Sequence record: OZ035777.1
Origin: Przondovirus NAN33P1
Strand: one strand, 5' to 3'
DNA: 40,656 nt
Shown here piece by piece: positions 291-21,041 of this stretch. The notes under the pieces were generated by a model, which did no database searches, was not told where the DNA came from, and saw only the letters and a list, made by a program, of their open reading frames with translations. Each line of letters starts with the position of its first letter. The stretch's first letter is position 1. The position numbers and the translations under genes are program-made.

Positions 291-325
291 ACTCAAGGTA
301 CTACTATATGTGGTGCCTTTATGGA
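291..325 (+). promoter_or_regulatory. RNase III-type processing hairpin (T7 R18.5-like)
   Basis: ACTCA + 10-bp stem (295-304 pairs with 310-319, two G-U pairs) + TTTATGGA. Same ACTCAAGG...GGCCTTTATGA architecture as the T7 R1.1 RNase III site; position between genes 18 and 18.5 matches T7 R18.5. Confidence 0.6.
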
Positions 326-383
326 TGTCATTGCACTACGCTAGGCGTTCCTACGTGAAAACTGAGAAACAACGGGAGGCATT

Positions 384-830
384 ATGCTGGAAATTACAAA
401 GAGAATCGTCCCGTATCTTGTGGTTATCATGGTGTTCGCCTTCGGGTGGCACTTTGGGTCACAATCCACGGACACCAAATGGAAGGAGGTAATACAGAAT
501 GAGTACGTTCAGAAGCAAACAGCTAGAGCTGAGACTCAGAAAGCGATTGACGCAGTATCGGCTAAGTACCAAGCAGACCTTGAAGGGCTGGAAGGCAGCA
601 CTGATAGGATTATTGCTGATTTGCGTAGCGACAATAAGCGGCTGCGCGTCAGAGTCAAACCTACCAGTGTCGCCGCAGGCCCAGACGGTCGATGCCTCGT
701 TGATGGTTCCGTCGAACTACACGAAGCAACTGCTCGAAGTCTTATCGCAATAACCCAGAAGGCCGACCTCAAAGAGAAGGCCCTACAGGACACAATTCGC
801 AAACTTCAAGGGAAAGGAGGTGAACATTGA
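384..830 (+). CDS. Rz-like i-spanin (T7 gene 18.5 homolog)
   Basis: 148 aa, ATG 384 with SD GGGAGG. N-terminal TM helix ([17 protein letters not shown]) then periplasmic coiled-coil region; collinear with T7 gp18.5 (…[10 protein letters not shown]…DRII(A/S)[14 protein letters not shown]…ALQDTIR). Stop TGA 828-830 overlaps the terminase start. Confidence 0.88.
499..753 (+). CDS. Rz1-like o-spanin lipoprotein, embedded in the +1 frame of Rz (T7 gene 18.7 homolog)
   Basis: 84-aa ORF entirely inside the Rz gene in another frame. ATG 499 with SD GGAAGGAGG (481-489). Hydrophobic stretch ending in a lipobox-like ISGC, then a Pro-rich periplasmic tail. Classic embedded Rz/Rz1 arrangement. Confidence 0.7.
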   Translation: MSTFRSKQLELRLRKRLTQYRLSTKQTLKGWKAALIGLLLICVATISGCASESNLPVSPQAQTVDASLMVPSNYTKQLLEVLSQ

Positions 831-2584
831 GTAACTCTCAGCAAGCCAAGAACGCCTTAATCATTGCGCAACTGAAGGGTGACTTTGTCGCCTTTCTCTT
901 CGTGCTATGGAAGGCCCTGAACCTGCCGGAACCAACCAAATGTCAAATCGACATGGCCAAGTGTCTGGCAGACCCAAAGAACAAGAAGTTCATCCTTCAG
1001 GCTTTCCGTGGTATCGGGAAGTCGTTCATCACGTGTGCGTTCGTAGTGTGGACCCTGTGGCGTGACCCTCAGTTAAAGATATTGATTGTCTCAGCCTCAA
1101 AGGAACGTGCGGACGCTAACTCCATCTTCATCAAGAACATCATCGACTTGTTGCCTTTCCTGAGTGAGCTTAAGCCTCGCCCCGGTCAGCGTGACTCCGT
1201 GATTAGCTTCGATGTAGGCCCTGCCAAGCCGGACCACAGCCCGTCAGTTAAGTCTGTGGGTATTACAGGTCAGCTTACTGGTAGCCGTGCCGATATCATC
1301 ATTGCGGATGACGTGGAGATTCCCGGTAACTCTGCAACCCAAGGTGCCCGCGAGAAACTCTGGACGCTGGTTCAGGAGTTCGCCGCACTGTTGAAACCTC
1401 TGCCGACTAGCCGTGTTATCTATCTGGGGACCCCTCAGACCGAGATGACGCTCTACAAGGAACTTGAGGACAACCGTGGGTACTCGACGATTATCTGGCC
1501 TGCACAGTATCCCCGCTCCAAAGAGGAAGACCTGTACTACGGCGACCGTCTGGCTCCGATGCTCCGCATTGAGTACGATGAGGACAAAGAGGGCCTAAGT
1601 AGCCAACCTACCGACCCGGTGCGATTCGACTCCATGGACCTTCAGGAACGTGAGGTGGAATACGGCAAGGCTGGCTATACGCTTCAGTTCATGCTCAACC
1701 CGAACCTCAGTGACGCCGAGAAGTACCCTCTACGCCTCCGTGACGCTATCGTGTGCGGTCTACAGATGGACAAGGCCCCAATGCACTACCAGTGGCTTCC
1801 GAACCGTCAGAACCGCAATGAGGAGCTTCCTAACGTGGGCATGAAGGGTGACGAGATTTACTCCTTCCATACAGCCTCAAGTAACACTGGTGCGTATCAG
1901 GGTAAGATTCTGGTCATTGACCCAAGTGGTCGCGGTAAGGATGAGACTGGCTGGTGCGTTCTATACACCCTCAACGGCTACATCTACTTGATGGACGCTG
2001 GTGGTACTCGTGGTTACGAAGAGAAGTCCCTTGAGTTCCTCGCTAAGAAGGCTAAGCAGTGGCAGGTGCAGACTGTGGTCTTCGAGAGTAACTTCGGTGA
2101 CGGTATGTTCGGTAACGTGTTCCAGCCTGTGCTCCTGAAGCATCACCCAGCGCAACTCGAAGAGATTCGTGCTCGTGGTATGAAAGAGGTCCGTATCTGC
2201 GATACCCTTGAGCCTGTACTGGCAAGTCACCGCTTGGTTATCCGTGATGAGGTAATCCGTCAGGACTACCAGACAGCACGCGATGCAGACGGTAAGCACG
2301 CTCTGAAGTACAGCCTGTTCTACCAGATGACCCGTATGAGCCGTGAGAAGGGCGCTGTGGCACATGACGACCGACTTGATGCGTTAGCATTGGGTGTCGA
2401 GTTCCTACGCTCTACGATGCAGCAAGACGCTGTGAAGATAGAGGCTGAGGTACTTCAGGAGTTCTTGGAGTACCACATGGAGAAACCTCTGAGTAACATC
2501 TCCCAGTTCCGGGCCACAAGCAGTAACGGTGTGGACATCCGGTGGGAAGACGATGGGGATGACTCTATGTTCATCTCATGGTGA
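827..2584 (+). CDS. terminase large subunit / DNA maturase B (T7 gene 19 homolog)
   Basis: 585 aa, near-collinear with T7 gp19 (…[17 protein letters not shown]…[15 protein letters not shown]…[14 protein letters not shown]…[16 protein letters not shown]…). Start is TTG at 827 (the frame is closed by TGA at 821-823) with SD AAGGAGG at 814-820. Confidence 0.95.
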
Positions 2585-2664
2585 TTATGCAGTGATTGTG
2601 CATAAGGATTCATTAGGCCAAGGAAGGCCACTTTTGGAAAACTCTAAGCATAACAGACACTTGG

Positions 2665-2687
2665 AATTAGGTAGCACTATAGGGAGA
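2665..2687 (+). promoter_or_regulatory. phage RNAP promoter (phi-OR-like, after gene 19)
   Basis: AATTAGGTAGCACTATAGGGAGA, exact match to the 23-bp consensus shared by 13 sites in this window; predicted +1 is G at 2682. Position matches T7 phi-OR. Confidence 0.8.
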
Positions 2688-2827
2688 GACCCAAGGTTAC
2701 ATACTATAAGACTACTTAAAGTTTCATTCATATAGATATGCACTTTAAGTCTCCTCTATGAGAGAGGGTAGTGATGATAATATCACCCTCTAACTATAAG
2801 ACACTAGAGCCAACATAAGGAGGACCT

Positions 2828-2977
2828 ATGCGCTTACTGTTAACCTTACTGCGCCATAGGACTACTTGGCGATTTCTGCTGGTACTTGCTGGTGCCCTTG
2901 GGGCTTCACTGGTTACTCAGCAGCAACTCAGTGGACTGGAGACTCTCGTGTGCTCTCTACTCACTTGTAGCGATTAG
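2828..2977 (+). CDS. gene 19.5-like small protein
   Basis: 49-aa ORF not in the supplied track (<60 aa): MRLLLTLLRHRTTWRFLLVLAGALGASLVTQQQLSGLETLVCSLLTCSD. ATG 2828 with SD TAAGGAGG (2816-2823), stop TAG 2975-2977. Last gene before the genome end, as T7 gene 19.5. Confidence 0.6.
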   Translation: MRLLLTLLRHRTTWRFLLVLAGALGASLVTQQQLSGLETLVCSLLTCSD

Positions 2978-3161
2978 GGTCTTCCTGACGCGCTAGGGAT
3001 TCCGTAGTGATGCTTATCAGCATACACCACTCCATCCCTCTACAGTCAATACTTAAAGTTAACCTTAGGTGATTCATTGGGTCCACCTACGGGTCTATGC
3101 AATGACCTGAGGACTACCTGAGGTTACCTTTAAGAATATGACATAAAGTTCTGAGCGTACA

Positions 3162-3342
3162 TCTCATAGTTTACACTTTTGGTTATCCCCCCCGGTACCC
3201 TCTCAGTCCACCCAAAGTAACCATAGGCCACCCTAAACCTTCGGTTTAACCTTAGGTGGGACTGATGGGAAACCTTTGGTGATACTATATGTTGTGGTGA
3301 GTGGGACCTTGGGATACTATATGTTGATGTCTCTGTGTCCCT
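3162..3342 (+). repeat. predicted terminal repeat region (single collapsed copy) with the physical left genome end near 3162
   Basis: 3162 begins TCTCATAGTTTACAC (T7 left end is TCTCACAGTGTACGG); a C7 run, ACCTTCGGTT, and ...TGTCTCTGTGTCCCT|ATCTGTT at 3329-3348 parallel the T7 terminal repeat and its right boundary as recalled from memory. Boundaries are approximate. Confidence 0.4.
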
Positions 3343-3471
3343 ATCTGTTGGTACTCATTAAGTCACACCTGAGGTAACTACCTGAGGTAATACCGGAGAC
3401 CATATACCTTAGGTTAACCGATGGTACATTAGGTTGAGACTCTTAGATAGTGGTTATCCAGTCATTTACAC

Positions 3472-3494
3472 AATTAGGTATCACTATAGGGAGA
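3472..3494 (+). promoter_or_regulatory. phage RNAP promoter (phi-OL-like, left end)
   Basis: AATTAGGTATCACTATAGGGAGA, one mismatch to consensus (G to T at -8); +1 G at 3489. Lies just upstream of the host-type early promoters, as phi-OL does in T7. Confidence 0.65.
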
Positions 3495-3571
3495 CACTCT
3501 GAGTATTACTAAGAGACCATCACCATAAAGACAACCATCACTATAGGTCTACTTAAAGTTAACTTAGAGTA

Positions 3572-3733: not shown

Positions 3734-3907
3734 GCACCACAGATTCACGAAGTATCGCTCTTTTACAATATGGATTAGCTGACATGTACATCACTCATCA
3801 CTTAGTGTTTAACTAGTGGTTACATTCAGGTCTCTGGCAAGGTACGTCCTGTCACCCTGAGAGTAGCCACACTGATAACCACTAATGTAACATTGAGGAT
3901 ATACACC

Positions 3908-5192: not shown

Positions 5193-6212
5193 ATGAACTA
5201 CACCGACATGCAAGAACGCTTAGACGTCATCCGTAACCTACCAATCTGTGAACTCGACAAGCGCCAACCGCTATTGGTTGCACTCATCGCGGACATTGTG
5301 AACTACGAGACGTCTGACGGTGACGATACAGCTAGCAGCTGTGGTCTGGAAAGTCAGTACTACTGGCAAACACTGAAGATTAAGGCCAAAGACGCCGGGT
5401 TTAACCTGCTGGGTAATGGTCACTTCAGCGCAGCGTTTAAGCACGAGCTACTACCGGGTAGGGTCATCAAGGTTGGCTTTAAGAAAGAAGACTCTGGGGC
5501 CGCTTACGTAGCATTCTGCCGGATGCATCAAGGTCGTGACGGTATTCCTAACGTCTATCACGTAGCGCGTCACGCTGGGTGCTACACGGTGGTACTAGAT
5601 GAGTTGTTACCGTGTCAACGCTACGAGGATGATGACCACGACCATTATGCAGACTTAGCGTTTCAATTCGTTGAGTGCACAGGCTACGACCATGAGGATT
5701 ACCGCAAGGATGACCAGCCGTTCATCGAAACGTGCCAGATGATTCGCAAGTTCTTCTACGGGATTGCGTCCTTTGATATGCATAGTGGTAACATCATGTT
5801 CACCAAAGACGGCAAGCCAGTGATTACCGACCCGGTGTCATTCTCGCATGACCGCGAACGTGAGTCGTTCTCACTGGAACCTGAGGAACTGCTCGCAGAG
5901 ATTGAGCAGATAGCGCACGATAAGATGATTGAACGCTGCAAGCGCAACAAGGCTAAGCGTGACCCGAACGGGGAGCTGCGCATCGCACGCCGTAAGGCCA
6001 ATAAGGAACGTCGGGCTGCCAACAAGGCACACGCTAGGTGGCGCAAGGAGCGCGAACGTGAACGTGAGCAGTATCACGTAGAAGCCTTAAAGGCAGACAT
6101 AGCGAGCATTGAAGCGCGCGTTCCGGTGTGGTGCAGGGGACCGGGCCTAGCGATACAAATGGGCAAGCCACTACCAATCGACAACTACCTTCAGGCTAGA
6201 CTTATGGGTTAA
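5193..6212 (+). CDS. serine/threonine protein kinase, host shutoff (T7 gene 0.7 homolog)
   Basis: 339 aa; LPICELDKRQ...AGFNLLGNGHFSAAF...RVIKVGFKKEDSGAAY(V/T)AFCRM.QGR.GIPNVY.V.RHAGCYTVVLD...IRKFF.GIASFDMHSGNIMF...ITDPVSFS is collinear with T7 gp0.7, followed by a basic Arg/Lys-rich C-terminal region. Confidence 0.92.
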   Translation: MNYTDMQERLDVIRNLPICELDKRQPLLVALIADIVNYETSDGDDTASSCGLESQYYWQTLKIKAKDAGFNLLGNGHFSAAFKHELLPGRVIKVGFKKEDSGAAYVAFCRMHQGRDGIPNVYHVARHAGCYTVVLDELLPCQRYEDDDHDHYADLAFQFVECTGYDHEDYRKDDQPFIETCQMIRKFFYGIASFDMHSGNIMFTKDGKPVITDPVSFSHDRERESFSLEPEELLAEIEQIAHDKMIERCKRNKAKRDPNGELRIARRKANKERRAANKAHARWRKEREREREQYHVEALKADIASIEARVPVWCRGPGLAIQMGKPLPIDNYLQARLMG

Positions 6213-6281
6213 CGAGGTGTATCTTAGGTGTCTCCACTGCGAGGCACCAATAGATAAACTTTATTCACAAAGAGGCACACA

Positions 6282-9002
6282 ATGAACGCATTAAACATTG
6301 CACGTAATGACTTCTCAGAGATTGAACTGGCCGCTATTCCGTACAACATCCTCAGCGAGCACTACGGGGACAAACTGGCACGTGAGCAGTTAGCACTCGA
6401 ACATGAAGCGTACGAGCTGGGCGAGCAGCGTTTCCTGAAGATGCTGGAACGTCAGGTTAAAGCTGGTGAGTTCGCTGACAACGTGGCCGCTAAGCCGCTG
6501 GTCTTAACGTTGCACCCACAGTTAACCAAGCGTATTGACGACTGGAAGGAGGAGCAAGCAAACGCTCGCGGTAAGAAGCCTCGCGCATACTATCCGATTA
6601 AGCACGGTGTGGCCTCAGAGTTAGCCATTAGCATGGGCGCTGAGGTGCTCAACGAGAAGCGCGGAGTGTCCAGTGAGGCAATCGCACTGCTAACCATTAA
6701 GGTAGTCTTAGGGACGCTCACAGACGCCTCAAAGGCCACCATCCAGCAGGTATCCTCTCAGTTAGGTAAGGCCCTTGAGGATGAGGCCCGCTTCGGTCGT
6801 ATTCGTGAGCAGGAAGCCACCTACTTCAAGAAGAACGTAGCGGACCAGCTGGACAAGCGCGTAGGCCACGTGTACAAGAAGGCTTTCATGCAGGTTGTCG
6901 AGGCCGATATGATTTCCAAAGGGATGCTGGGTGGTGACAACTGGGCGAGCTGGAAGACCGACGAGCAGATGCACGTGGGGACCAAGCTGCTAGAGTTACT
7001 CATTGAGGGCACTGGTCTGGTGGAAATGACCAAGAACAAGATGGCCGATGGCTCCGACGATGTGACCAGTATGCAGATGGTCCAGCTGGCTCCGGCCTTT
7101 GTGGAACTCCTGAGCAAACGAGCAGGCGCACTCGCAGGTATCAGCCCGATGTACCAGCCGTGCGTAGTCCCTCCGAAACCTTGGGTTGGAACTGTGGGTG
7201 GAGGCTACTGGTCAGTCGGTCGTCGCCCGCTGGCACTGGTGCGTACCCACTCCAAGAAGGCACTGCGCCGCTATGAAGACGTGCACATGCCTGAGGTGTA
7301 CAAAGCAGTCAATCTCGCGCAAAACACGCCGTGGAAGGTGAACAAGAAGGTGCTGGCGGTAGTCAACGAGATTGTCAACTGGAAGCACTGCCCGGTGGGT
7401 GACGTCCCGGCGATTGAGCGCGAAGAATTACCACCACGCCCGGACGATATCGATACCAACGAGGTGGCACGCAAGGCTTGGCGCAAGGAGGCCGCAGCGG
7501 TCTACCGTAAGGACAAGGCACGACAGTCTCGCCGTTTGTCAATGGAGTTCATGGTTGCACAGGCCAACAAATTCGCTAACCATAAGGCCATCTGGTTCCC
7601 ATACAACATGGACTGGCGTGGACGTGTGTACGCTGTTAGCATGTTCAACCCGCAGGGTAACGACATGACTAAGGGTATGCTGACACTGGCCAAGGGCAAA
7701 CCGATTGGTCTCGATGGGTTCTACTGGCTGAAGATTCACGGTGCAAACTGTGCAGGCGTCGATAAGGTTCCTTTCCCTGAGCGCATCAAGTTCATCGAAG
7801 AGAACGAGGGCAACATTCTGGCGAGCGCAGCCGACCCACTGAATAACACTTGGTGGACCCAGCAGGATTCGCCGTTCTGTTTCCTAGCGTTCTGCTTTGA
7901 GTATGCAGGCGTTAAACATCACGGCCTGAATTACAACTGCTCGCTGCCGCTGGCGTTCGATGGGTCATGCTCTGGGATTCAGCACTTCAGCGCAATGCTC
8001 CGCGATTCCATCGGTGGCCGTGCGGTAAACCTGCTGCCATCTGATACCGTGCAGGATATCTACAAGATTGTGGCCGATAAGGTCAACGAGGTGCTCCACC
8101 AGCACGTTGTCAACGGGTCTCAGACGGTGGTCGAGCAGATTGCAGACAAGAAGACTGGGGAGTTCCGCGAGAAGGTAACACTGGGTGAGTCCGTGCTGGC
8201 TGCTCAGTGGTTGCAATATGGTGTTACCCGTAAGGTGACTAAGCGTTCGGTCATGACGCTGGCGTACGGTTCCAAAGAGTTTGGCTTCCGCCAGCAAGTT
8301 CTTGAGGACACCATTCAGCCAGCTATTGATAACGGCGAGGGCTTGATGTTTACGCACCCTAACCAAGCGGCTGGCTATATGGCTAAGCTGATTTGGGACG
8401 CTGTTACCGTGACCGTAGTGGCCGCTGTCGAGGCTATGAACTGGCTGAAGTCTGCTGCTAAACTGCTGGCCGCTGAAGTCAAGGACAAGAAGACCAAAGC
8501 GGTGCTCCGTAAGCGCTGCGCAATCCACTGGGTAACACCAGACGGCTTCCCGGTGTGGCAGGAATATCACAAGCGCGACCAAGCGCGCCTGAAGCTGACG
8601 TTTCTAGGTCAGGCCAACGTGTTCATGACGTACAACAAAGGGGAAGCCAAAGAGATTGACGCACATAAGCAGGAGTCAGGAATCGCTCCTAACTTTGTGC
8701 ACTCACAGGATGGTAGTCACCTGCGCATGACCGTAGTGCACGCCAACGAGGTCTACGGGATTGACTCCTTCGCGCTCATTCACGACTCCTTCGGGACCAT
8801 TCCGGCAGATGCTGGGAATCTATTTAAGGCAGTCCGTGAGACGATGGTAAAGACCTACGAGGATAACGATGTGATTGCAGACTTCTATGACCAGTTCGCT
8901 GACCAGCTGCACGAGTCTCAGCTCGATAAGATGCCTGAGGTACCAGCCAAAGGGGACCTGAATCTGCGCGATATCTTAGAGTCTGACTTTGCGTTCGCGT
9001 GA
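6282..9002 (+). CDS. single-subunit DNA-directed RNA polymerase (T7 gene 1 homolog)
   Basis: 906 aa (the size I recall for K11 RNAP; T7 is 883). Collinear with T7 RNAP throughout, including the C-terminus ...IHDSFGTIPADA.NLFKAVRETMV.TYE..DV.ADFYDQFADQLHESQLDKMP..PAKG.LNLRDILESDFAFA. Confidence 0.98.
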   Translation: MNALNIARNDFSEIELAAIPYNILSEHYGDKLAREQLALEHEAYELGEQRFLKMLERQVKAGEFADNVAAKPLVLTLHPQLTKRIDDWKEEQANARGKKPRAYYPIKHGVASELAISMGAEVLNEKRGVSSEAIALLTIKVVLGTLTDASKATIQQVSSQLGKALEDEARFGRIREQEATYFKKNVADQLDKRVGHVYKKAFMQVVEADMISKGMLGGDNWASWKTDEQMHVGTKLLELLIEGTGLVEMTKNKMADGSDDVTSMQMVQLAPAFVELLSKRAGALAGISPMYQPCVVPPKPWVGTVGGGYWSVGRRPLALVRTHSKKALRRYEDVHMPEVYKAVNLAQNTPWKVNKKVLAVVNEIVNWKHCPVGDVPAIEREELPPRPDDIDTNEVARKAWRKEAAAVYRKDKARQSRRLSMEFMVAQANKFANHKAIWFPYNMDWRGRVYAVSMFNPQGNDMTKGMLTLAKGKPIGLDGFYWLKIHGANCAGVDKVPFPERIKFIEENEGNILASAADPLNNTWWTQQDSPFCFLAFCFEYAGVKHHGLNYNCSLPLAFDGSCSGIQHFSAMLRDSIGGRAVNLLPSDTVQDIYKIVADKVNEVLHQHVVNGSQTVVEQIADKKTGEFREKVTLGESVLAAQWLQYGVTRKVTKRSVMTLAYGSKEFGFRQQVLEDTIQPAIDNGEGLMFTHPNQAAGYMAKLIWDAVTVTVVAAVEAMNWLKSAAKLLAAEVKDKKTKAVLRKRCAIHWVTPDGFPVWQEYHKRDQARLKLTFLGQANVFMTYNKGEAKEIDAHKQESGIAPNFVHSQDGSHLRMTVVHANEVYGIDSFALIHDSFGTIPADAGNLFKAVRETMVKTYEDNDVIADFYDQFADQLHESQLDKMPEVPAKGDLNLRDILESDFAFA

Positions 9003-9012
9003 GGTCTCCGGT

Positions 9013-9035
9013 AATTAGGTAGCACTATAGGGACC
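9013..9035 (+). promoter_or_regulatory. phage RNAP promoter (immediately after gene 1)
   Basis: AATTAGGTAGCACTATAGGGACC; -17 to +4 match consensus; +1 G at 9030. Drives the 9093-9656 gene. Confidence 0.75.
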
Positions 9036-9092
9036 TGCTCTCTGGGTCCATATACTTAAAGACAACTTAAAGTAAACTTAAAGAGGCACGCT

Positions 9093-9656: not shown

Positions 9657-9674
9657 GGTAGCACTATAGGAACA
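9652..9674 (+). promoter_or_regulatory. degenerate phage RNAP promoter (phi-1.1-like)
   Basis: AATAAGGTAGCACTATAGGAACA; core GGTAGCACTATAGG intact, three mismatches at -14, +3 and +5. Overlaps the stop codon of the upstream gene and directly precedes an R1.1-like hairpin, as phi-1.1A does in T7. Confidence 0.5.
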
Positions 9675-9675
9675 T

Positions 9676-9707
9676 ACTCAAGGTCATCATCTGGTGGCCT
9701 TTATGAA
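9676..9707 (+). promoter_or_regulatory. RNase III processing hairpin (T7 R1.1-like)
   Basis: ACTCAAGGTCATCATCTGGTGGCCTTTATGAATG; near-identical ends to the T7 R1.1 site (ACUCAAGGUCAU...GUGGCCUUUAUGAUUG as recalled). Stem 9680-9689 pairs with 9692-9701. Confidence 0.7.
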
Positions 9708-9737
9708 TGTCCCTAACAACCACTCAGGAGCAACACT

Positions 9738-9914: not shown

Positions 9915-9917
9915 CAA

Positions 9918-10175: not shown

Positions 10176-10196
10176 TTAGGTAGCACTATAGGCAGA
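10174..10196 (+). promoter_or_regulatory. phage RNAP promoter (phi-1.3-like)
   Basis: GATTAGGTAGCACTATAGGCAGA; mismatches at -17 and +3; +1 G at 10191. Precedes the ligase gene. Confidence 0.65.
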
Positions 10197-10230
10197 CTCA
10201 AGGTCATCGGATTCCGGTGGCCTTTATGAT
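10196..10230 (+). promoter_or_regulatory. RNase III processing hairpin (T7 R1.3-like)
   Basis: ACTCAAGGTCATCGGATTCCGGTGGCCTTTATGATTG; 11-bp stem (10200-10210 pairs with 10214-10224), same conserved flanks as the other family members. Confidence 0.7.
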
Positions 10231-10280
10231 TGCTTATTGCACACTAAATGAACACTACACTACACTTCGGAGACATCCTC

Positions 10281-11459: not shown

Positions 11460-11462
11460 ACC

Positions 11463-12426: not shown

Positions 12427-12427
12427 T

Positions 12428-12450
12428 CATTAGGTAGCACTATAGGGACA
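12428..12450 (+). promoter_or_regulatory. phage RNAP promoter (phi-2.5-like)
   Basis: CATTAGGTAGCACTATAGGGACA; mismatch at -17; +1 G at 12445. The transcript 5-prime end can fold GGGACA/TGTCCC (12445-12461). Confidence 0.7.
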
Positions 12451-12492
12451 CAAGCTGTCCCTCTCACTGTTTAAACTTAAAGGAGATTCATC

Positions 12493-13188: not shown

Positions 13189-13637
13189 TGGCTGGCTATG
13201 GGGCCAAAGGGATTCGGAAGGTGGGTGCCTTCCGGTCTGGCCTTGAGGACAAGGTGTCCAAGCAGTTAGAATCAAAGGGCGTCACGTTCGATTATGAATT
13301 GTGGCGCATCCCTTATGTTATTCCTGCGAGTGACCACCTTTACACCCCAGACTTCTTGTTACCCAACGGTATCTTCGTGGAGACTAAGGGTCTCTGGGAA
13401 GCCGAGGACCGCAAGAAGCATCTACTGATTCGTGAGCAACATCCAGAGCTAGACATTCGTCTGGTATTCTCGTCGTCACGGACCAAGATTTACAAAGGGT
13501 CGCCCACCAGTTACGCTGAGTGGTGCGAGAAGCATAACATCTTGTTTGCCGACAAATTGATTCCCGTAGACTGGCTGAAGGAGCCGAAGCGTGATGTACC
13601 GTTCGGCAAGTTCAAGCAGAAGAAAGGAGCAAAGTAA
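13188..13637 (+). CDS. endonuclease I, Holliday junction resolvase (T7 gene 3 homolog)
   Basis: 149 aa, nearly identical over long stretches to T7 gp3 (MAGYGAKGIRKVGAFRSGLEDKVSKQLESKG...PDFLLPNGIFVETKGLWE..DRKKHLLIREQHPELDIR.VFSSSRTK.YKGSPTSY). ATG overlaps the gp2.5 stop. Confidence 0.96.
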   Translation: MAGYGAKGIRKVGAFRSGLEDKVSKQLESKGVTFDYELWRIPYVIPASDHLYTPDFLLPNGIFVETKGLWEAEDRKKHLLIREQHPELDIRLVFSSSRTKIYKGSPTSYAEWCEKHNILFADKLIPVDWLKEPKRDVPFGKFKQKKGAK

Positions 13638-13639
13638 GT

Positions 13640-14095
13640 ATGGCTAAGGTTCAATTCACTAAGCGACAGGAGACCTCTCAGATTTTCGTGCACTGTTCTG
13701 CCACTAAGGTAACCATGGACATCGGTGTCCGCGAGATTCGCCAGTGGCACAAAGAGCAGGGCTGGCTGGACGTAGGGTATCACTTCATCATCCGTCGTGA
13801 TGGTACCGTTGAGGCGGGCCGTGACCAAGACGCTGTAGGTTCACACGTCAAGGGGTACAACTCGACTTCTGTCGGTGTGTGTCTGGTAGGTGGTATCGAC
13901 TCCAAGGGTAACCCTGAAGCAAACTTCACGCCAGCCCAGATGCAGTCTCTGCGCTCACTGCTGGTAGAACTGAAGGTGCAATACTCCGGGGCAGTGTTGA
14001 TGGCACACCATGATGTAGCGCCGAAGGCTTGCCCGAGCTTCGACCTGAAGCGCTGGTGGGAGAAGAACGAATTGGTCACTTCTGACCGTGGGTAA
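13640..14095 (+). CDS. lysozyme / N-acetylmuramoyl-L-alanine amidase (T7 gene 3.5 homolog)
   Basis: 151 aa; ...IFVHCSATK....GVREIRQWHKEQGWLDVGYHFII.RDGTVEAGRD...VGSH.KGYN..S.GVCLVGGID.KG...ANFTPAQMQSLRSLLV.L.....GAVL.AHH.VAPKACPSFDLKRWWEKNELVTSDRG, collinear with T7 lysozyme. Confidence 0.96.
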   Translation: MAKVQFTKRQETSQIFVHCSATKVTMDIGVREIRQWHKEQGWLDVGYHFIIRRDGTVEAGRDQDAVGSHVKGYNSTSVGVCLVGGIDSKGNPEANFTPAQMQSLRSLLVELKVQYSGAVLMAHHDVAPKACPSFDLKRWWEKNELVTSDRG

Positions 14096-14096
14096 A

Positions 14097-16008
<1,912 letters not shown>

Positions 16009-16073
16009 GAAATGTCAATGCCCAGCATGTGACTGGGCGTCACCATACGGTAACCACTGAAAGGAGAACCATC

Positions 16074-16283
16074 ATGTTTAAACTTATCGAAGCATTAGGA
16101 CGTCTGGTCATCGCGCTGTACGTACGCGAAGCCAAGGCGCTGGACAAAGCGTCCAAGGTTGAAGCGGAAGCAGCCGCTAAGCTGGCTAAAGCCGCCGACA
16201 AGGCACGTCAAGCGTCTCTGGACGCAACCGCAGAGGCAGCGAAAGTTGCACTTAAAGCCCAGAAACTTAAGGAGTTCTTCTAA
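16074..16283 (+). CDS. gene 4.3-like small protein
   Basis: 69 aa from ATG 16074 (SD AAGGAGA 16061-16067); MFKLIEALGRLVIALYV...KLKEFF, an Ala/Lys-rich helical protein resembling T7 gp4.3 (MFKLIKKLGQLL...) as recalled. Confidence 0.6.
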   Translation: MFKLIEALGRLVIALYVREAKALDKASKVEAEAAAKLAKAADKARQASLDATAEAAKVALKAQKLKEFF

Positions 16284-16361
16284 CCCATGGACATTTACGT
16301 GCTAGTCGGTATGCTTATTGGCGTCCTGCTCATACACCTATTAACATAAGGAGTTCTTCTA

Positions 16362-16673
16362 ATGACTACCAAAGCTAAATTCCCCGGCAATACCATTCAG
16401 CTGTCAGACACTATTGACCAGTGGGGCCGCAAGGTTCACATCAACGTCCGCAATGACAAGGTCACTCTGGTCTACCGCTGGAAGGCTAAGAGCGATAACC
16501 GTGCGCACACCCAGCGTGTGACCCTCGACGATACACAGGCAGCTCGACTGCTGGCATCCGTAGCCGTAGCCGCTACTGTAGCTGTTGGTGAGGACAAGGT
16601 CCGTGAGGCCATCCTGAGTAAAGAGGTAGGCGAAACTTCCGTACGTCTGGCCGAGGCGTCAGAAGCTAAGTGA
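16362..16673 (+). CDS. hypothetical protein (103 aa; gene 4.5 position)
   Basis: ATG 16362 preceded by TAAGGAG within a 16-bp direct-repeat copy; no homolog recognised by eye. Confidence 0.6.
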   Translation: MTTKAKFPGNTIQLSDTIDQWGRKVHINVRNDKVTLVYRWKAKSDNRAHTQRVTLDDTQAARLLASVAVAATVAVGEDKVREAILSKEVGETSVRLAEASEAK

Positions 16674-16676
16674 TAA

Positions 16677-16713
16677 ACTCAAGGTCATTACTATATGTAG
16701 TGGCCTTTATGAT
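16677..16713 (+). promoter_or_regulatory. RNase III processing hairpin (T7 R4.7-like)
   Basis: ACTCAAGGTCATTACTATATGTAGTGGCCTTTATGATTA; 11-bp stem (16681-16691 pairs with 16697-16707); same family as the R1.1-like site. Confidence 0.7.
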
Positions 16714-16745
16714 TATCATACACAACATATTGAGAGGACATTACC

Positions 16746-17132
16746 ATGCGTAAACCTGAAGAAATCCGTGCAGACATCGCGAAGCTGACCAAAGAGCTGG
16801 AAGCTGTTAAGATTCATGAGTCCAGACAGGTTGCTGCTGTTAACATCTTGTATAACTTAGGGTGGACACACGACCCTCACAAGGGCTGGCAGAAACCTGC
16901 GCCAAAATGGAGCGACTATAAGGCTCCCCTGAAGGCTGGCGACTTTGCGACTTGGGAGGATGGGACCATTGGTGGTACAGTCTACATCCGCAGTGTCGGC
17001 GACAAGTATGCTCAGGTGTCTCAAGTTCGTGCTATTACCGGGCTGGGTGCTGACGTAGCTAACGGTAGCTTCGCCGTCGAGAAGAGTAAGCTAACCGTAC
17101 GTCCTCGTGAGTATTTCATCGGGCGTCATTAA
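16746..17132 (+). CDS. hypothetical protein (128 aa; gene 4.7 position)
   Basis: ATG 16746 with GAGAGGA upstream; assignment by synteny only. Confidence 0.6.
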   Translation: MRKPEEIRADIAKLTKELEAVKIHESRQVAAVNILYNLGWTHDPHKGWQKPAPKWSDYKAPLKAGDFATWEDGTIGGTVYIRSVGDKYAQVSQVRAITGLGADVANGSFAVEKSKLTVRPREYFIGRH

Positions 17133-17148
17133 GTAACAGGAGACCACT

Positions 17149-19263
17149 ATGTTAGTAACCGATATCGAGGCTAACAACCTCTTAGAGAAAGTCACTCAGT
17201 TCCACTGCGGTGTCATTTATGACTACAGCACGGACGAGTACGTATCGTATCGACCTTGGGACTTCTCAGCGTATCTCGATGCGTTAGAAGCTGAGGTGGC
17301 TCGTGGTGGTCTCATCGTATTCCACAACGGTCACAAGTACGATGCCCCAGTGTTAACCAAGCTGGCCAAGCTCCAGTTAAACCGCGAGTTCCACCTGCCG
17401 CGTGAGAACGTAGTGGACACGTTGGTACTTAGCCGTTTGCTTTTTGCGAACATTAAGGACTCCGACATGGCCCTGCTGCGTTCCGGTAAGTTACCCGGTA
17501 AGCGCTTCGGGTCTCACGCTCTGGAGGCGTGGGGTTACCGCTTAGGCGAGATGAAGGGTGAGTACAAGGACGACTTCAAGAAACTCCTTGAGGAACAAGG
17601 AGAGGACTATGTGGACGGTGCTGAGTGGATTAGCTTCAACGAGCCGATGATGGACTATAACGTTCAGGACGTTGTGGTGACCAAGGCGCTCTTAGAGAAG
17701 TTGCTGAGTGACAAGCACTACTTCCCGGATGACGTTAACTTTACCGATTGCTGTACTGATGCCTTTTGGTATGATTCCTGCGAGGCCGTCTGGCTGGAGC
17801 ACAGAGCTGCGTGGTTGCTCGCTAAGCAGGAGCGTAACGGCTTCCCGTTTGACACCAAGGCCATAGAGGAACTCTACGTTGAACTCGCTGGTCGTCGTTC
17901 TGAACTCCTTCAGACACTTACCGACACTTTCGGTACTTGGTACCAACCTAAGGGAGGCACTGAGTTGTTCCTGCACCCTCGCACCGGGAAGCCTCTTGGT
18001 AAATACCCACGAGTGAAGTACCCGAAACAGGGTGGTATCTACAAGAAACCCAAGAACAAAGCTCAGCGTGAGGGTCGTGAACCCTGTGAGCTGGACACTC
18101 GGGATTACGTAGAGGGCGCTCCATACACACCAGTAGAGCACGTTGTGTTCAACCCAAGTAGCCGAGACCACATTGCACTCAAGCTGAAGGAAGCCGGATG
18201 GATACCTACAGAGTTCACCGATAAAGGTGCGCCTAAGGTAGACGACGAGGTCCTTGAGCATGTACGTGTGGATGACCCTGAGAAGCAGCGCTGTATTGAC
18301 CTCATCAAAGAGTACCTGATGATACAGAAGCGCATAGGTCAGGCGGCTGAGGGTGACAAAGCGTGGCTACGTTACGTTCAAGAGGATGGTAAAATTCATG
18401 GGTCCGTTAATCCCAATGGGGCCGTTACTGGCCGAGCAACACACAGTTTTCCTAACCTCGGACAAGTTCCCGGAGTCCGTTCTCCTTATGGTGAACCTTG
18501 CCGAGCAGCATTCGGAGCTGAACACCACCTTGATGGTATTACTGGAAAACCTTGGGTTCAGGCAGGTATCGACGCCTCCGGTCTGGAGTTACGCTGTCTC
18601 GCCCACTTTATGTCCAAGTACGATAATGGAGATTACGCGGACGTTATCCTCAATGGTGACATTCACACAGTTAATCAACAGGCCGCTGAGCTTCCGACTC
18701 GTGACAACGCGAAGACCTTTATCTACGGATTCCTTTACGGAGCAGGAGATGAGAAGATTGGACAAATCGTTGGAGCAGGTAAGGAACGCGGAAAGGAACT
18801 CAAGAAGAAATTCCTTGAGAACACCCCAGCAATCGCAGCCCTGCGCGAAGGAATCCAGCAGACCCTCGTCGAGTCATCCAGATGGGTTGCCGGAGAGCAG
18901 AAGGTCAAGTGGAAACGACGCTGGATTAAGGGACTGGATGGAAGAAAGGTACACGTACGGTCACCACATGCTGCACTCAACACGTTGCTTCAGTCAGCGG
19001 GTGCGCTCATTTGTAAGCTCTGGATTGTCGAGACTGAAGAGTTACTTCTCAAAGCTGGATTAAAGCACGGTTGGGATGGTGATTTTGCGTACATGGCGTG
19101 GGTACACGATGAGATTCAAGTAGCGTGCAGAACCCCTGAGATTGCACAGCAGGTTATCGACACTGCGCAACAAGCTATGCGTAACGTAGGGGAACACTTT
19201 AAGTTCCGTTGCCGTCTGGATACAGAAGGTAAGATGGGTCCTAACTGGGCCGTATGTCACTAA
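17149..19263 (+). CDS. DNA polymerase (T7 gene 5 homolog)
   Basis: 704 aa, the same length as T7 DNAP and collinear throughout (exonuclease motif M.V.DIEAN.LLE, polymerase motifs). Retains the thioredoxin-binding insertion (YQPKGGTE.F.HPRTGKPL.KYPR.K.PK.GGI.KKPKNKAQREGREPCELDTR). Confidence 0.98.
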   Translation: MLVTDIEANNLLEKVTQFHCGVIYDYSTDEYVSYRPWDFSAYLDALEAEVARGGLIVFHNGHKYDAPVLTKLAKLQLNREFHLPRENVVDTLVLSRLLFANIKDSDMALLRSGKLPGKRFGSHALEAWGYRLGEMKGEYKDDFKKLLEEQGEDYVDGAEWISFNEPMMDYNVQDVVVTKALLEKLLSDKHYFPDDVNFTDCCTDAFWYDSCEAVWLEHRAAWLLAKQERNGFPFDTKAIEELYVELAGRRSELLQTLTDTFGTWYQPKGGTELFLHPRTGKPLGKYPRVKYPKQGGIYKKPKNKAQREGREPCELDTRDYVEGAPYTPVEHVVFNPSSRDHIALKLKEAGWIPTEFTDKGAPKVDDEVLEHVRVDDPEKQRCIDLIKEYLMIQKRIGQAAEGDKAWLRYVQEDGKIHGSVNPNGAVTGRATHSFPNLGQVPGVRSPYGEPCRAAFGAEHHLDGITGKPWVQAGIDASGLELRCLAHFMSKYDNGDYADVILNGDIHTVNQQAAELPTRDNAKTFIYGFLYGAGDEKIGQIVGAGKERGKELKKKFLENTPAIAALREGIQQTLVESSRWVAGEQKVKWKRRWIKGLDGRKVHVRSPHAALNTLLQSAGALICKLWIVETEELLLKAGLKHGWDGDFAYMAWVHDEIQVACRTPEIAQQVIDTAQQAMRNVGEHFKFRCRLDTEGKMGPNWAVCH

Positions 19264-19283
19264 TACTATACAGGAGATTTATC

Positions 19284-19586
19284 ATGGCTATTACCAAGCG
19301 TTTTAAAGTGACCTTTGAGGTTACCAGCGTCATTGACAGCGAGTCCGAGAAGAACCTGAGCGAGACCATTCTTAGTATCGCACAGAAGGTTTCCAAAGGT
19401 GAGAAGGTGGACAACTTCAAGCTGGGTTTACTTGAGGCTGCACTAAACGGTGGTCCTGACGCAGCGGTTGAGTATTGCATCCGACACGGTCTGCGCTCGA
19501 TGGTCAAAGATGCCCATGACGGCCTTTCGTTTAACGAGAAGAAACTTATGCGCTTCTCTCCGGCTATCGTGAGGGTGACCAAGTGA
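19284..19586 (+). CDS. gene 5.5-like protein (T7 gp5.5 binds H-NS)
   Basis: 100 aa from ATG 19284 (SD AGGAGA 19272-19277); MAITKRFKVTFEVT... resembles T7 gp5.5 (MAMTKKFKVSFDVT...) as recalled. Confidence 0.75.
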   Translation: MAITKRFKVTFEVTSVIDSESEKNLSETILSIAQKVSKGEKVDNFKLGLLEAALNGGPDAAVEYCIRHGLRSMVKDAHDGLSFNEKKLMRFSPAIVRVTK

Positions 19587-19792
19587 GTGAATATCTCAAA
19601 GTTCTGGCGGCCCTCAAGGGCTGCCCTAAGTCCTTCCAGTCGAACTACGTGCGTAATAACGCTGCGTTAGTCGCGGAGGCTGCGAGCCGTGGTCACATTT
19701 CGTGCCTGACCATGAGTGGTCGTAATGGTGGCGCTTGGGAGATTACCAGTGCCGGAGTGAAATTCCTTAAGACCCATGGAGGTTGCCTGTGA
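19583..19792 (+). CDS. gene 5.7 protein homolog
   Basis: 69 aa, GTG start overlapping the gp5.5 stop. MSEYLKVLAALKGCPKSFQSNYVRNNAALVAEAASRGHISCLTMSGRNGGAWEITSAGVKFLK is near-identical in pattern to T7 gp5.7. Confidence 0.85.
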   Translation: MSEYLKVLAALKGCPKSFQSNYVRNNAALVAEAASRGHISCLTMSGRNGGAWEITSAGVKFLKTHGGCL

Positions 19793-19965
19793 GAAAGAGA
19801 ATGGTGTTCGTGCACCCTTTGGAACCTAAATCACACTGGGAAACTTCTGGTGGCATCGTCTGGTTTTATAAGGATGGCTACATGCTGCGACAGTCCCATG
19901 TCACCCACAAGGACCTTCATGACCCGAAGATGGGTTTTAAATTCAAGGAGTTAAAGAATGAGTAA
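19789..19965 (+). CDS. hypothetical basic protein (gene 5.9 position, not gp5.9-like)
   Basis: ORF in the track starts at TTG 19783; a GTG at 19789 has SD GGAGG (19778-19782) and an ATG lies at 19801. Product is basic, unlike the acidic T7 gp5.9 RecBCD inhibitor. Start is uncertain. Confidence 0.4.
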   Translation: MRKRMVFVHPLEPKSHWETSGGIVWFYKDGYMLRQSHVTHKDLHDPKMGFKFKELKNE

Positions 19966-20863
19966 GCACACATTGTTATCCTTCAGTGACTACCGGGCAA
20001 CCCAGAAGATTGCCAAGGGTGTCCTTGTGATGGATGGTGACTGGCTGGTGTTCCAAGCCATGAGTGCCGCTGAGTTCGATGCCTCTTGGGAGGAGGAGAT
20101 TTGGCATCGTTGTTGTGACCACGCTAAGGCTCGAGAGATTCTGGAGAACTCCATTGAATCCTACAAAGGGCGCAAGAAGGCGTGGAAGAATGCAGACGTT
20201 GTCCTAGCGTTCACTGACCGTGTCAACTGGCGTAAGCTGCTGGTGGACCCAACGTACAAAGAGAACCGAGCTGTCACTAAGAAGCCTGTGGGTTACTTCG
20301 AGTTCCTTGAATCCGTCTTTGAAACCTACACGTGCGTCCTTGAGCCTCAGCTCGAAGGCGATGACGTGATGGGTATCATCGGGTCTAACCCTCTCGTGTA
20401 TAACTACGAGAAGGCCGTGCTGGTCTCCTGTGACAAGGACTTTAAGACCATCCCGGATTGTGATTTCCTGTGGTGCACGACTGGTAACATCCTCGTTCAG
20501 ACTCAGGAGACCGCCGACTACTGGCACCTCTTCCAGACTATCAAGGGCGACATCACCGATGGTTACGGTGGGATTCCCGGCTGGGGCGATACCGCAGAGG
20601 ACTTCCTCAAGGAGCCCTTCATTGTGGAGCCTGTAACGTCCATATTGAAGTCCGGGAAGAACAAGGGCCAAGAGGTAACCAAGTGGGTGAAACGCGCTCC
20701 TGAGCCGGGAGAGACGCTCTGGGACTGCATTAAGTCCATTGGTGCCAAAGCAGGGATGACCGAAGCGGAAGTAATCAAGCAGGGCCAGATGGCTCGCATC
20801 CTCCGTTCTGATGAGTACAACATCGAGACTGGGGAGATTACTCTATGGCAACCGGGCAGCTGA
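19958..20863 (+). CDS. 5-prime to 3-prime exonuclease (T7 gene 6 homolog)
   Basis: 301 aa; ...GILVMDGDWLVFQAMSAAEFDASWEEEIWHRCCDHAKAR.IL...VLAFTD.VNWRK.LVDP.YK.NR...KKPVGYFEFL...CDKDFKTIP.CDFLWCTTGNIL.QT.E.AD.WHLFQTIKGDITDGY.GI.GWGDTAEDFL is collinear with T7 gp6. Confidence 0.96.
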   Translation: MSKHTLLSFSDYRATQKIAKGVLVMDGDWLVFQAMSAAEFDASWEEEIWHRCCDHAKAREILENSIESYKGRKKAWKNADVVLAFTDRVNWRKLLVDPTYKENRAVTKKPVGYFEFLESVFETYTCVLEPQLEGDDVMGIIGSNPLVYNYEKAVLVSCDKDFKTIPDCDFLWCTTGNILVQTQETADYWHLFQTIKGDITDGYGGIPGWGDTAEDFLKEPFIVEPVTSILKSGKNKGQEVTKWVKRAPEPGETLWDCIKSIGAKAGMTEAEVIKQGQMARILRSDEYNIETGEITLWQPGS

Positions 20864-20955
20864 TTCTTATCGTCCTGACCATGGGCTTAATCGCTCGTGG
20901 TCTCTGGATGTTGGCCTTGATTATCAAGCAGATAGTCGAGCACAAAGCAGAGTGA
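20845..20955 (+). CDS. hypothetical 36-aa membrane peptide (gene 6.3 position)
   Basis: Unlisted ORF MATGQLILIVLTMGLIARGLWMLALIIKQIVEHKAE overlapping the 3-prime end of the exonuclease gene in another frame. Confidence 0.35.
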   Translation: MATGQLILIVLTMGLIARGLWMLALIIKQIVEHKAE

Positions 20956-20971
20956 TAAACTCATGGGCACT

Positions 20972-20994
20972 AATTAGGTAGCACTATAGGGAAG
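20972..20994 (+). promoter_or_regulatory. phage RNAP promoter (phi-6.5-like) embedded in an inverted repeat
   Basis: AATTAGGTAGCACTATAGGGAAG; +1 G at 20989. Flanked by a perfect 9-bp inverted repeat ATGGGCACT / AGTGCCCAT (20963-20971 and 20993-21001) with R1.1-family flanks (ACTCA upstream, TTATGATTAT downstream). Confidence 0.7.
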
Positions 20995-21041
20995 TGCCCA
21001 TTATGATTATTACTTAAAGATTACTTAAAGAGGAGACTCAA

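What the first reader, a model, noticed from the sequence alone, without database searches (positions are those of the whole stretch)
291..21006. Family of five conserved hairpins matching the T7 R1.1 RNase III site
The motif ACTCA-AGG...stem...CC-TTTATGA recurs at 291-325, 9676-9707, 10196-10230 and 16677-16713, with a variant at 20959-21006. Stems are 10-11 bp with G-U pairs. The ends are near-identical to the T7 R1.1 site as I remember it (ACUCAAGGUCAU...GUGGCCUUUAUGAUUG). Map positions correspond to T7 R18.5, R1.1, R1.3, R4.7 and R6.5. In the fifth copy the stem arms flank the phi-6.5 promoter, so promoter core and processing site are merged: a read-through transcript would contain the full hairpin while the transcript initiated here would not.
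Basis: partly seen in the sequence, partly recalled or inferred. Interest (0 to 1): 0.5.

Follow-up and report, generated by a model that had tools for sequence, protein, structure and literature searches.

The report
T7-type RNase III sites, Klebsiella phage
The five hairpins are the Klebsiella-phage counterparts of the well-known sites where the host enzyme RNase III cuts phage T7 messenger RNAs, including the T7-style site with a promoter inside its loop, so the finding is correct but ordinary.

Summary
All five hairpins are at the stated coordinates. The exact motif occurs 4 times against 0.00 in shuffles.

The window is a complete, circularly permuted genome of a K11/KP32-like Klebsiella phage (Przondovirus).

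Each hairpin is only the upper stem of a larger structure: a 7-9 bp lower stem, an asymmetric internal loop (ACUC / UUAUG) and a 9-11 bp upper stem. This is the classic T7 RNase III-site architecture.

- A covariance model built only from T7 and T3 sites ranks the five as its top five window hits (E 1e-10 to 1e-5).
- Flanking genes place them at R18.5, R1.1, R1.3, R4.7 and R6.5.
- Across 143 related copies the pairing covaries strongly.

The promoter-in-loop design of the fifth site is not new. T7, T3 and K11 have the same arrangement, with compensatory stem changes, and the T3 record annotates it.

Cleavage itself was not testable here. Verdict: new members of a known kind, low interest.

The parts
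282..333 (+). R18.5 homologue. Lower stem CAGUGAUAU/AUGUCAUUG, internal loop, 10-bp upper stem AAGGUACUAC/GUGGUGCCUU. Expected cut after U322 (CCUUUAU|GG), by homology.
   Evidence: dG -22.8, z -5.4. CM hit 276-338 at 45.3 bits, E 5e-8. Lies between gene 18 (30-287) and gene 18.5 (384-830).
9667..9716 (+). R1.1 homologue, directly downstream of promoter phi1.1 (+1 at 9669). Its first 8 upper-stem pairs are identical to T7 R1.1. Expected cut after U9704.
   Evidence: dG -18.2, z -3.8. Best CM hit, 9661-9720 at 56.1 bits, E 1.4e-10. Lies between gene 1.05 and gene 1.1.
10187..10238 (+). R1.3 homologue, directly downstream of promoter phi1.3 (+1 at 10191). 11-bp upper stem. Expected cut after U10227.
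   Evidence: dG -22.4, z -5.5. CM hit 10181-10243 at 35 bits, E 1.4e-5. Lies between gene 1.2 and gene 1.3 (ligase).
16670..16720 (+). R4.7 homologue. 11-bp upper stem whose pairs 1-9 equal those of T7 R1.1, including the U:G/U:A distal box. Expected cut after U16710.
   Evidence: dG -19.5, z -5.4. CM hit 16662-16726 at 45.9 bits, E 3.7e-8. Lies between gene 4.5 (ends 16673) and gene 4.7 (16746).
20950..21015 (+). R6.5 homologue. Lower stem GAGUGAUAA/UUAUUACUU and upper stem AUGGGCACU/AGUGCCCAU, enclosing promoter phi6.5 in the loop. Expected cut after U21004, in read-through RNA only.
   Evidence: dG -21.6, z -3.7. CM hit 20944-21019 at 35.5 bits, E 1.1e-5. Alignment with T7, T3 and K11 R6.5. 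blastn hit to T7 18504-18596. Lies between gene 6.3 and gene 6.5.
20972..20994 (+). Phage-RNAP promoter phi6.5 (-17 to +6, +1 = G20989), lying in the loop and 3' arm of the R6.5 hairpin.
   Evidence: One of 13 copies of TAGGTAGCACTATAGG, against 0.2 expected. K11 annotates phi6.5 at the homologous place.
6219..6258 (+). UAUCU/AGAUA lower stem and 8-bp upper stem GGUGUCUC/GAGGCACC, between the gene 0.7 kinase and gene 1.
   Evidence: Sixth CM hit, 6208-6267 at 16.9 bits, E 0.29. Fold dG -16.0, z -4.85. Alignment with T7, T3 and K11 R1.
14111..14138 (+). ACAGGGAGAC/GUUUCCCUGU, beginning at -3 of the promoter at 14100 (+1 = 14114).
   Evidence: Fold dG -15.2, z -6.4. Alignment with T7 and T3 R3.8 shows promoter -2 A->C paired with a 3'-arm U->G. 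The T3 record annotates its homologue as an RNase III site.
28969..29012 (+). A 19-bp stem whose 3' arm is promoter phi13 itself (+1 = 29006), so only read-through RNA can form it.
   Evidence: Fold dG -31.1, z -8.4. Alignment and folds of the T7, T3 and K11 counterparts. T3 annotates R13 enclosing phi13.
3816..3871 (+). Irregular hairpin of about 21 bp, 37 nt upstream of gene 0.3 (start 3908). Possible R0.3 analogue of a different sequence type.
   Evidence: Fold dG -27.0, z -4.4. Identical in K11 826-880. The few variants in related loci keep pairing, one by a compensatory U:A->C:G change. Not matched by the T7/T3 model.
5193..6212 (+). Gene 0.7 protein kinase homologue (context). In T7 this kinase raises RNase III activity.
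   Evidence: 83.5% identical to K11 gp0.7 'serine-threonine kinase'. Abstract of PMC4858673.

Best explanation
The five elements are orthologues of the T7/T3 RNase III processing sites R18.5, R1.1, R1.3, R4.7 and R6.5, in a K11/KP32-like Klebsiella phage.

Shown here:
- On the sense RNA each folds into two coaxial helices, about 17-20 bp in all, separated by an asymmetric internal loop.
- The sequence and structure match T7 and T3 sites, and the flanking genes are the same.
- A transcript started at phi6.5 (+1 = 20989) lacks the 5' arms of the R6.5 structure.

Inferred by homology:
- Host RNase III binds the helix and cuts once, on the 3' side of the loop (CCUUUAU|GA).
- This divides polycistronic transcripts into defined mRNAs. 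The upstream product ends in the protective hairpin and the downstream product starts a few nucleotides before the next gene's leader.
- R1.1 and R1.3 lie 36-37 nt downstream of their promoters, so read-through and promoter-initiated RNAs would get the same 5' end.
- At R6.5, and likewise at R13 and partly at R3.8, the promoter sits inside the hairpin. Only RNA reading through from upstream can fold and be cut. Promoter-initiated RNA would escape processing.
For: - Motif far beyond chance: 4 exact matches against 0.00 in shuffles.
- Two-helix fold with internal loop, z -3.7 to -5.5.
- A model built from 14 T7/T3 sites only gives these five as its top window hits, E 1.4e-10 to 1.4e-5, all on the + strand.
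- Synteny with T7, T3 and K11 genes.
- The T3 record annotates the homologous stem-loops as RNase III recognition sites, with R6.5 enclosing phi6.5.
- The motif is widespread on 38-45 kb viral contigs: more than 120 stretches.
- Across 143 model hits, 93.3% of cells are paired, against 30-50% when partners are slid. There are 283 double-sided changes against 81 in shuffles, 0 of 500 reaching the observed value.
- R6.5 stems differ completely between T7, T3 and K11/window but stay complementary around three different promoters.
- The sense RNA folds far better than the antisense (for example -22.8 against -4.9 kcal/mol) because of G.U pairs.
- Proximal-box position 2 is A:U in four sites and U:A in R6.5. 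U:A is tolerated (relative reactivity 0.8) and is not the inhibitory G:C/C:G (PMC1540722).
- A gp0.7 kinase homologue is present.
Against: - No experimental data for this phage or genus. No processed ends or in vitro cleavage were found in the searchable literature.
- Przondovirus GenBank records do not annotate these sites.
- Two upper stems (R1.1, R6.5) are 9 bp. That is shorter than the 11 bp minimum reported for a substrate that lacks a lower stem. Natural sites do have the lower stem.
- The distal-box pair U:A of T7 R1.1 is replaced in R1.1, R1.3, R18.5 and R6.5.
- The covariation alignment was fitted to the model, which inflates pair counts somewhat.
- The T7 cleavage coordinates were recalled from memory. 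They were checked only by their landing on the conserved CCTTTA-T-GAT.
Confidence: 0.9

Rival explanations
1. The hairpins act only as RNA structural elements, without RNase III cleavage in this host. They would be 3'-end stabilisers or barriers to exonucleases, or insulators that separate translation units.
For: Stable sense-strand hairpins sit in intergenic positions. T7 itself grows without RNase III, according to PMC6938266, so cleavage is not essential and could in principle have been lost.
Against: The conserved part is the internal loop and cleavage-site sequence, not merely a stem. The two-helix, internal-loop geometry is specific to T7 RNase III substrates. The proximal-box pairs are retained. 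A bare stabiliser would not need this conservation across T7, T3 and K11.
Confidence: 0.05
2. The repeats are DNA-level elements. They would be palindromes serving as recombination joints between modules, replication-origin hairpins, or targets of host systems that sense DNA hairpins.
For: The motif is a dispersed repeat at module boundaries. T7 RNase III-site palindromes on plasmids, and similar ones from a T7-like vibriophage, trigger the Lamassu DdmABC system, presumably as ssDNA hairpins (PMC11707656).
Against: All copies are on the transcribed strand. G.U pairs are conserved, for example U:G in 98 of 117 sequences at one upper-stem position. The complementary strand therefore folds much worse. 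That is the signature of selection on RNA, not on a DNA cruciform. Any DNA-level effect would be a side effect.
Confidence: 0.03
3. They are transcription terminators or pause sites for host or phage RNA polymerase.
For: A moderately G+C-rich stem is followed by UUUAU.
Against: None of the four sites within 9000-21500 is picked up by the terminator scan, which found 5 sites against 9.8 expected. There is no U-run. Genes downstream of each site lack a promoter of their own in several cases (for example gene 18.5 and gene 4.7), so termination there would silence them. The homologous T7 sites are processing sites.
Confidence: 0.02

Closest known systems
Bacteriophage T7 RNase III sites R1.1, R1.3, R4.7 and R18.5 (with the T3 sites of the same names)
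   Same: Same intergenic positions and same strand. Same lower stem, asymmetric loop and upper stem. Same ACUCAAGG...CCUUUAUGAU core. In R1.1, R1.3 and R4.7 the first 8 upper-stem pairs (AAGGUCAU/GUGGCCUU) are identical to T7 R1.1.
   Different: Loop sequences and lower stems differ, through compensatory changes. Upper stems are 9-11 bp against 10 in T7 R1.1. No phi4.7 promoter follows R4.7 here. Only one promoter (phi1.1) flanks R1.1, as in T3 and not as in T7. Cleavage is untested in Klebsiella.
T7 and T3 R6.5 (promoter phi6.5 inside the RNase III hairpin), with R13 and R3.8
   Same: The promoter lies in the loop between the upper-stem arms. T7 has AAGGTCCCTA[phi6.5]TAGGGGCCTT. T3 annotates stem_loop 17135-17206 enclosing the promoter at 17160-17182. 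K11 and the window have ATGGGCAC(T)[phi6.5]AGTGCCCAT. R13 pairs an upstream segment with the promoter itself in all four phages.
   Different: The stem sequence is entirely different, with a compensatory A:U->U:A at the second pair. The enclosed promoter is the phage's own specificity type, TAGGTAGCACTATAGG.
Cellular and lambda RNase III substrates (rRNA precursor stems, lambda N leader, sib)
   Same: Hairpins of about two helical turns, cut by the same host enzyme.
   Different: Those are mostly cut on both strands and share no sequence with the T7-type sites. The T7-type internal loop restricts cutting to one strand (PMC1540722).

Membership tests
T7-group (Studiervirinae) RNase III processing sites | Two coaxial helices (about two helical turns in all) separated by an asymmetric internal loop that carries the scissile bond on its 3' side | tested here: met
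   All five fold as a 7-9 bp lower stem, a loop and a 9-11 bp upper stem. 0 of 200 shuffles fold as well.
T7-group (Studiervirinae) RNase III processing sites | Sequence and structure match to experimentally defined or annotated T7 and T3 sites | tested here: met
   A covariance model built from 14 T7/T3 sites only gives the five as its top hits, 35-56 bits, E 1e-10 to 1e-5. The next hit is the R1 homologue at E 0.29, and the rest are at E 2 or above.
T7-group (Studiervirinae) RNase III processing sites | Sense-strand, intergenic location at the syntenic positions (18/18.5, 1.05/1.1, 1.2/1.3, 4.5/4.7, 6.3/6.5) | tested here: met
   tblastn of K11 proteins, compared with the T7 and T3 maps.
T7-group (Studiervirinae) RNase III processing sites | Base pairing maintained by compensatory change across relatives | tested here: met
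   143 copies, 93.3% of cells paired. 15 of 16 pairs show double-sided changes. 0 of 500 shuffles reach the observed covariation score. Slid controls give 30-50% paired. The alignment was fitted to the model, so the counts lean towards it.
T7-group (Studiervirinae) RNase III processing sites | Proximal box free of the inhibitory G:C/C:G pair at position 2 | tested here: met
   A:U in four sites and U:A in R6.5. U:A retains 0.8 relative reactivity in uR1.1 (PMC1540722). The mapping of box positions onto the stems is my own derivation from the paper's numbering.
T7-group (Studiervirinae) RNase III processing sites | Canonical distal box (U:A / U:G) | tested here: inconclusive
   The U:G at upper-stem pair 8 is present in R1.1, R1.3, R4.7 and R18.5. 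The adjacent U:A is kept only in R4.7. R6.5 has C:G/U:A. Natural T7 and T3 sites vary here too.
T7-group (Studiervirinae) RNase III processing sites | Site-specific cleavage by host RNase III in vivo and in vitro | not testable with these tools
   No transcript-end data for this phage or genus were found.
Intrinsic (rho-independent) terminators | G+C-rich stem followed directly by a run of U | tested here: not met
   No site in 9000-21500 was flagged. The scan found 5 against 9.8 expected, all on the minus strand.
Any curated Rfam family | Score at or above the family gathering threshold | tested here: not met
   0 matches in the whole window. No Rfam family matched any of these sites.

The most novel reading that the evidence does not exclude
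The promoter-embedded sites (R6.5, R13 and partly R3.8) may be a selected device that sorts transcripts by origin. RNA reading through from the previous class would be cut and capped by a 3' hairpin. RNA started at the embedded promoter would stay unprocessed. Because one hairpin arm must pair with or around the promoter, the arm has to co-evolve with RNA-polymerase promoter specificity. At R13 the window pairs GUGUUGCU with GGUAGCAC, K11 pairs GUGUGCUC with GGGCACAC, and T7 and T3 differ again. These hairpins would therefore couple promoter-specificity change to RNA processing, a constraint that I have not seen described. The searches here did not look for this point, and the original T7 and T3 genome papers could not be read.
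Probability: 0.3. Interest if true: 0.3.

Novelty: new member of a known kind. Interest (0 to 1): 0.12.

Why it matters
Mostly for annotation. Hundreds of Klebsiella przondovirus genomes carry these elements, identical or nearly so, and the sampled records of the R6.5 region label them only as hypothetical proteins or promoters. The T7/T3-derived model built here recovers them directly.

For engineering therapeutic Klebsiella phages, or KP32/K11 polymerase expression systems, the positions of the likely processing sites matter when inserting or deleting genes. So does knowing which promoters (phi6.5, phi13, phi3.8) are entangled with them.

Biologically the finding adds evidence that the T7 processing map, including promoter-in-hairpin sites, is ancestral to Studiervirinae. 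It does not open a new question.

Tried and rejected
- **Rfam:** a search at gathering thresholds gave no family.
- **Terminator reading:** rejected.
- **DNA cruciform or palindrome reading:** rejected as the primary function, because the antisense strand folds much worse and G.U pairs are conserved.
- **Canonical R0.3 and R0.5 sites:** searched for in the early region. The model finds none. K11 has a canonical-type site at L002 1086-1146, preceded by a small unannotated ORF. The window lacks that whole segment. My first pairwise alignment of the regions upstream of gene 0.3 was misleading. The true K11 homologue of window 3816-3871 is at K11 826-880.
- **Literature:** searches for RNase III sites in Klebsiella or other przondoviruses found nothing specific. 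One search failed on a term shorter than three characters. The phiYeO3-12 genome paper could not be fetched. The original T7 (Dunn and Studier 1983) and T3 genome papers were not looked up, because I judged them to lie outside the held library. The T7 cleavage coordinates therefore rest on my memory, checked against the sequence.
- **Technical:** locus L003 was not visible to Python at first, so T3 sites were handled through the alignment and fold tools.


Full report
**What the window is.** The 40,656-base window is a whole, circularly permuted genome of a T7-like Klebsiella phage of the genus Przondovirus (K11/KP32 group).
- A 3-kb segment is 90-94% identical to Klebsiella phages KA1-1, Emom and PMBT12.
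- K11 proteins map along it in T7 gene order at 57-100% identity.
- It carries 13 copies of its own phage-polymerase promoter, TAGGTAGCACTATAGG, against 0.2 expected.

**The observation.** The exact pattern ACTCAAGG-N8-30-GCCTTTATG occurs four times, all on the + strand, and never in 100 shuffles. The fifth copy is the variant ACTCATGG...CCATTATGA. The remembered T7 R1.1 sequence is right.

**Anatomy.**
- Free energies are -18 to -23 kcal/mol and z-scores -3.7 to -5.5. None of 200 shuffles folds as well.
- This is the architecture of the T7 sites. Internal loops of this kind limit cutting to one phosphodiester and leave a protective 3' hairpin (PMC1540722).
- The structures contain 2-5 G.U pairs each. 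The antisense RNA therefore folds much worse (for example -22.8 against -4.9, and -22.4 against -11.0 kcal/mol). This points to an RNA-level, sense-strand function.

**Independent family test.**
- I aligned seven canonical sites each from T7 and T3. T7 coordinates were recalled from memory and land on CCTTTA-T-GAT. T3 sites are annotated in NC_003298 as 'RNase III recognition site'.
- The consensus structure has 16 pairs, 9 of them with compensatory changes. I built a covariance model from it without any window sequence.
- Scanning the window with filters off gave the five reader sites as the top five hits, at 56.1, 45.9, 45.3, 35.5 and 35.0 bits (E 1.4e-10 to 1.4e-5).
- The next hit was 6208-6267 (16.9 bits, E 0.29). 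Everything else was noise at E 2 or above.

**Synteny.** The sites lie between these genes:
- gene 18 (30-287) and 18.5 (384-830);
- gene 1.05 (9093-9656) and 1.1 (9738-9914);
- gene 1.2 (ends 10175) and 1.3 (ligase);
- gene 4.5 (ends 16673) and 4.7 (16746-17132);
- gene 6.3 (20845-20955) and 6.5 (21042-21287).

These are the positions of R18.5, R1.1, R1.3, R4.7 and R6.5 in T7 and T3. As in T3, R1.1 and R1.3 follow their promoters directly. The +1 positions are 9669 and 10191, 36-37 nt before the expected cut.

**Distribution and covariation.**
Nearly all are on 38-45 kb contigs, the size of T7-like genomes.
- The T7/T3 model found 143 copies in 80 of those loci plus K11 and the window.
- On that alignment 93.3% of cells form standard pairs, against 30-50% when partners are slid. 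There are 283 cells with changes on both sides against 81 in shuffles (0 of 500), and 15 of 16 pairs show such changes.
- The alignment was fitted to the model, so these numbers lean towards it. The lower stem nevertheless varies freely in sequence while keeping 88.5% pairing.
- A U:G pair is kept in 98 of 117 distinct sequences at one upper-stem position.

**The fifth site.** The arms AUGGGCACU and AGUGCCCAU enclose promoter phi6.5 (20972-20994, +1 = 20989), and a 9-bp lower stem closes the whole. A transcript starting at 20989 lacks both 5' arms, so only read-through RNA can form the substrate.

It is not a novelty of this genome:
- T7 reads AAGGTCCCTA-[TAATACGACTCACTATAGGGAGA]-TAGGGGCCTT.
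- The T3 record annotates the R6.5 stem-loop 17135-17206 around promoter 17160-17182.
- K11's annotated phi6.5 (17793-17815) sits inside the model hit 17766-17841.
- The four stems are entirely different in sequence yet complementary. This includes an A:U to U:A swap at the second pair, a substitution that retains 0.8 relative reactivity in the minimal R1.1 substrate.
- blastn of the segment reaches T7 18504-18596 directly. 126 phage records carry it at 99% identity or more, and none of the listed records labels it as an RNase III site.

- R1: 6219-6258, between the gene 0.7 kinase and gene 1 (z -4.85). It aligns with T7, T3 and K11 R1 with compensatory upper-stem changes.
- R3.8 type: 14111-14138, starting at -3 of the promoter at 14100. 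The unusual C at promoter -2 pairs with a G in the 3' arm, where T7 and T3 have A and U.
- R13 type: 28969-29012, a 19-bp hairpin (-31.1 kcal/mol, z -8.4) whose 3' arm is promoter phi13 itself. In K11, T7 and T3 the upstream arm is complementary to each phage's own promoter.
- Possible R0.3 analogue: an irregular hairpin of about 21 bp at 3816-3871, 37 nt before gene 0.3. It is identical in K11, and its few variants elsewhere preserve pairing. It does not match the T7/T3 model.
- No R0.5 equivalent was found.

**Mechanism.**
- Shown: the fold, the family match, the synteny and the covariation.
- Inferred by homology: host RNase III cuts once in the 3' side of the internal loop (CCUUUAU|GA), after U322, U9704, U10227, U16710 and U21004. 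This would separate the long phage transcripts into defined mRNAs whose 3' ends carry the hairpin.
- Context: the phage encodes a gene 0.7 kinase homologue. In T7 this kinase raises RNase III activity (abstract of PMC4858673).
- In T7 the sites shape transcript abundance between R3.8 and R6.5, although the phage can grow without RNase III (PMC6938266).

**Rivals.**
- A terminator role is not supported. No site was flagged, there is no U-run, and downstream genes depend on read-through.
- A DNA-palindrome role is unlikely as the primary function, given strand bias and G.U pairs. T7-type RNase III palindromes can incidentally trigger the Lamassu DdmABC defence (PMC11707656).
- A purely structural role without cleavage cannot be excluded without experiments. 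It would not explain why the loop and cleavage sequence are so conserved.

**Verdict.** The elements are orthologues of a textbook system in a lineage where they are not annotated. They are new members of a known kind, and interest is low.

Noticed in passing
window 6219-6258: An R1-type RNase III hairpin between the gene 0.7 kinase and the RNA polymerase gene.
   Followed up: yes
window 28969-29012 (K11 L002 25838-25874; T7 L001 27236-27278): An R13-type 19-bp hairpin whose 3' arm is the phi13 promoter. The upstream arm differs between the window, K11, T7 and T3 so as to stay complementary to each phage's own promoter specificity region.
   Followed up: yes
window 14100-14138: The promoter here has C instead of T at -2 (CACTACAGG). 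That base is part of an R3.8-type hairpin and pairs with a G in the 3' arm. T7 and T3 have A paired with U at the same place, so the promoter deviation appears tied to the RNA structure.
   Followed up: partly
window 3816-3871; K11 L002 826-880 and 913-1146: A conserved irregular hairpin lies in the early leader just before gene 0.3. After the same hairpin, K11 carries about 250 bp more: a small unannotated ORF starting at 913 and a canonical-type RNase III site at 1086-1146. The window lacks this segment.
   Followed up: partly
window 9054-9083, 12475-12482, 21012-21030, 29027-29034 and others: The octamer ACTTAAAG occurs 15 times against 0.76 expected. 12 copies are on the + strand, several of them in 5' leaders a few bases before ribosome-binding sites (three in tandem before gene 1.05, two before gene 6.5). 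It may be a translational-leader motif, reminiscent of the T7 gene 10 leader (from memory).
   Followed up: partly
window 9030-9052, 12445-12462, 24490-24530, 36292-36315: Transcripts from several phage promoters (phi1.05, phi2.5, phi10, phi17) would begin with a short hairpin formed by the GGGA(G/C)A start and a downstream complement, as in T7 late leaders.
   Followed up: no
window 2590-3560: The window is a circular permutation of a linear genome. Gene 19 ends at 2584, phiOR is at 2668 and phiOL at 3475, so the terminal-repeat and concatemer-junction region lies inside the window at roughly 2750-3450.
   Followed up: no
literature (PMC11707656): T7 RNase III-site palindromes, and similar ones from a T7-like vibriophage, trigger Lamassu DdmABC-dependent cell death in Vibrio cholerae. 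The palindromes in this window could be comparable liabilities at the DNA level.
   Followed up: no
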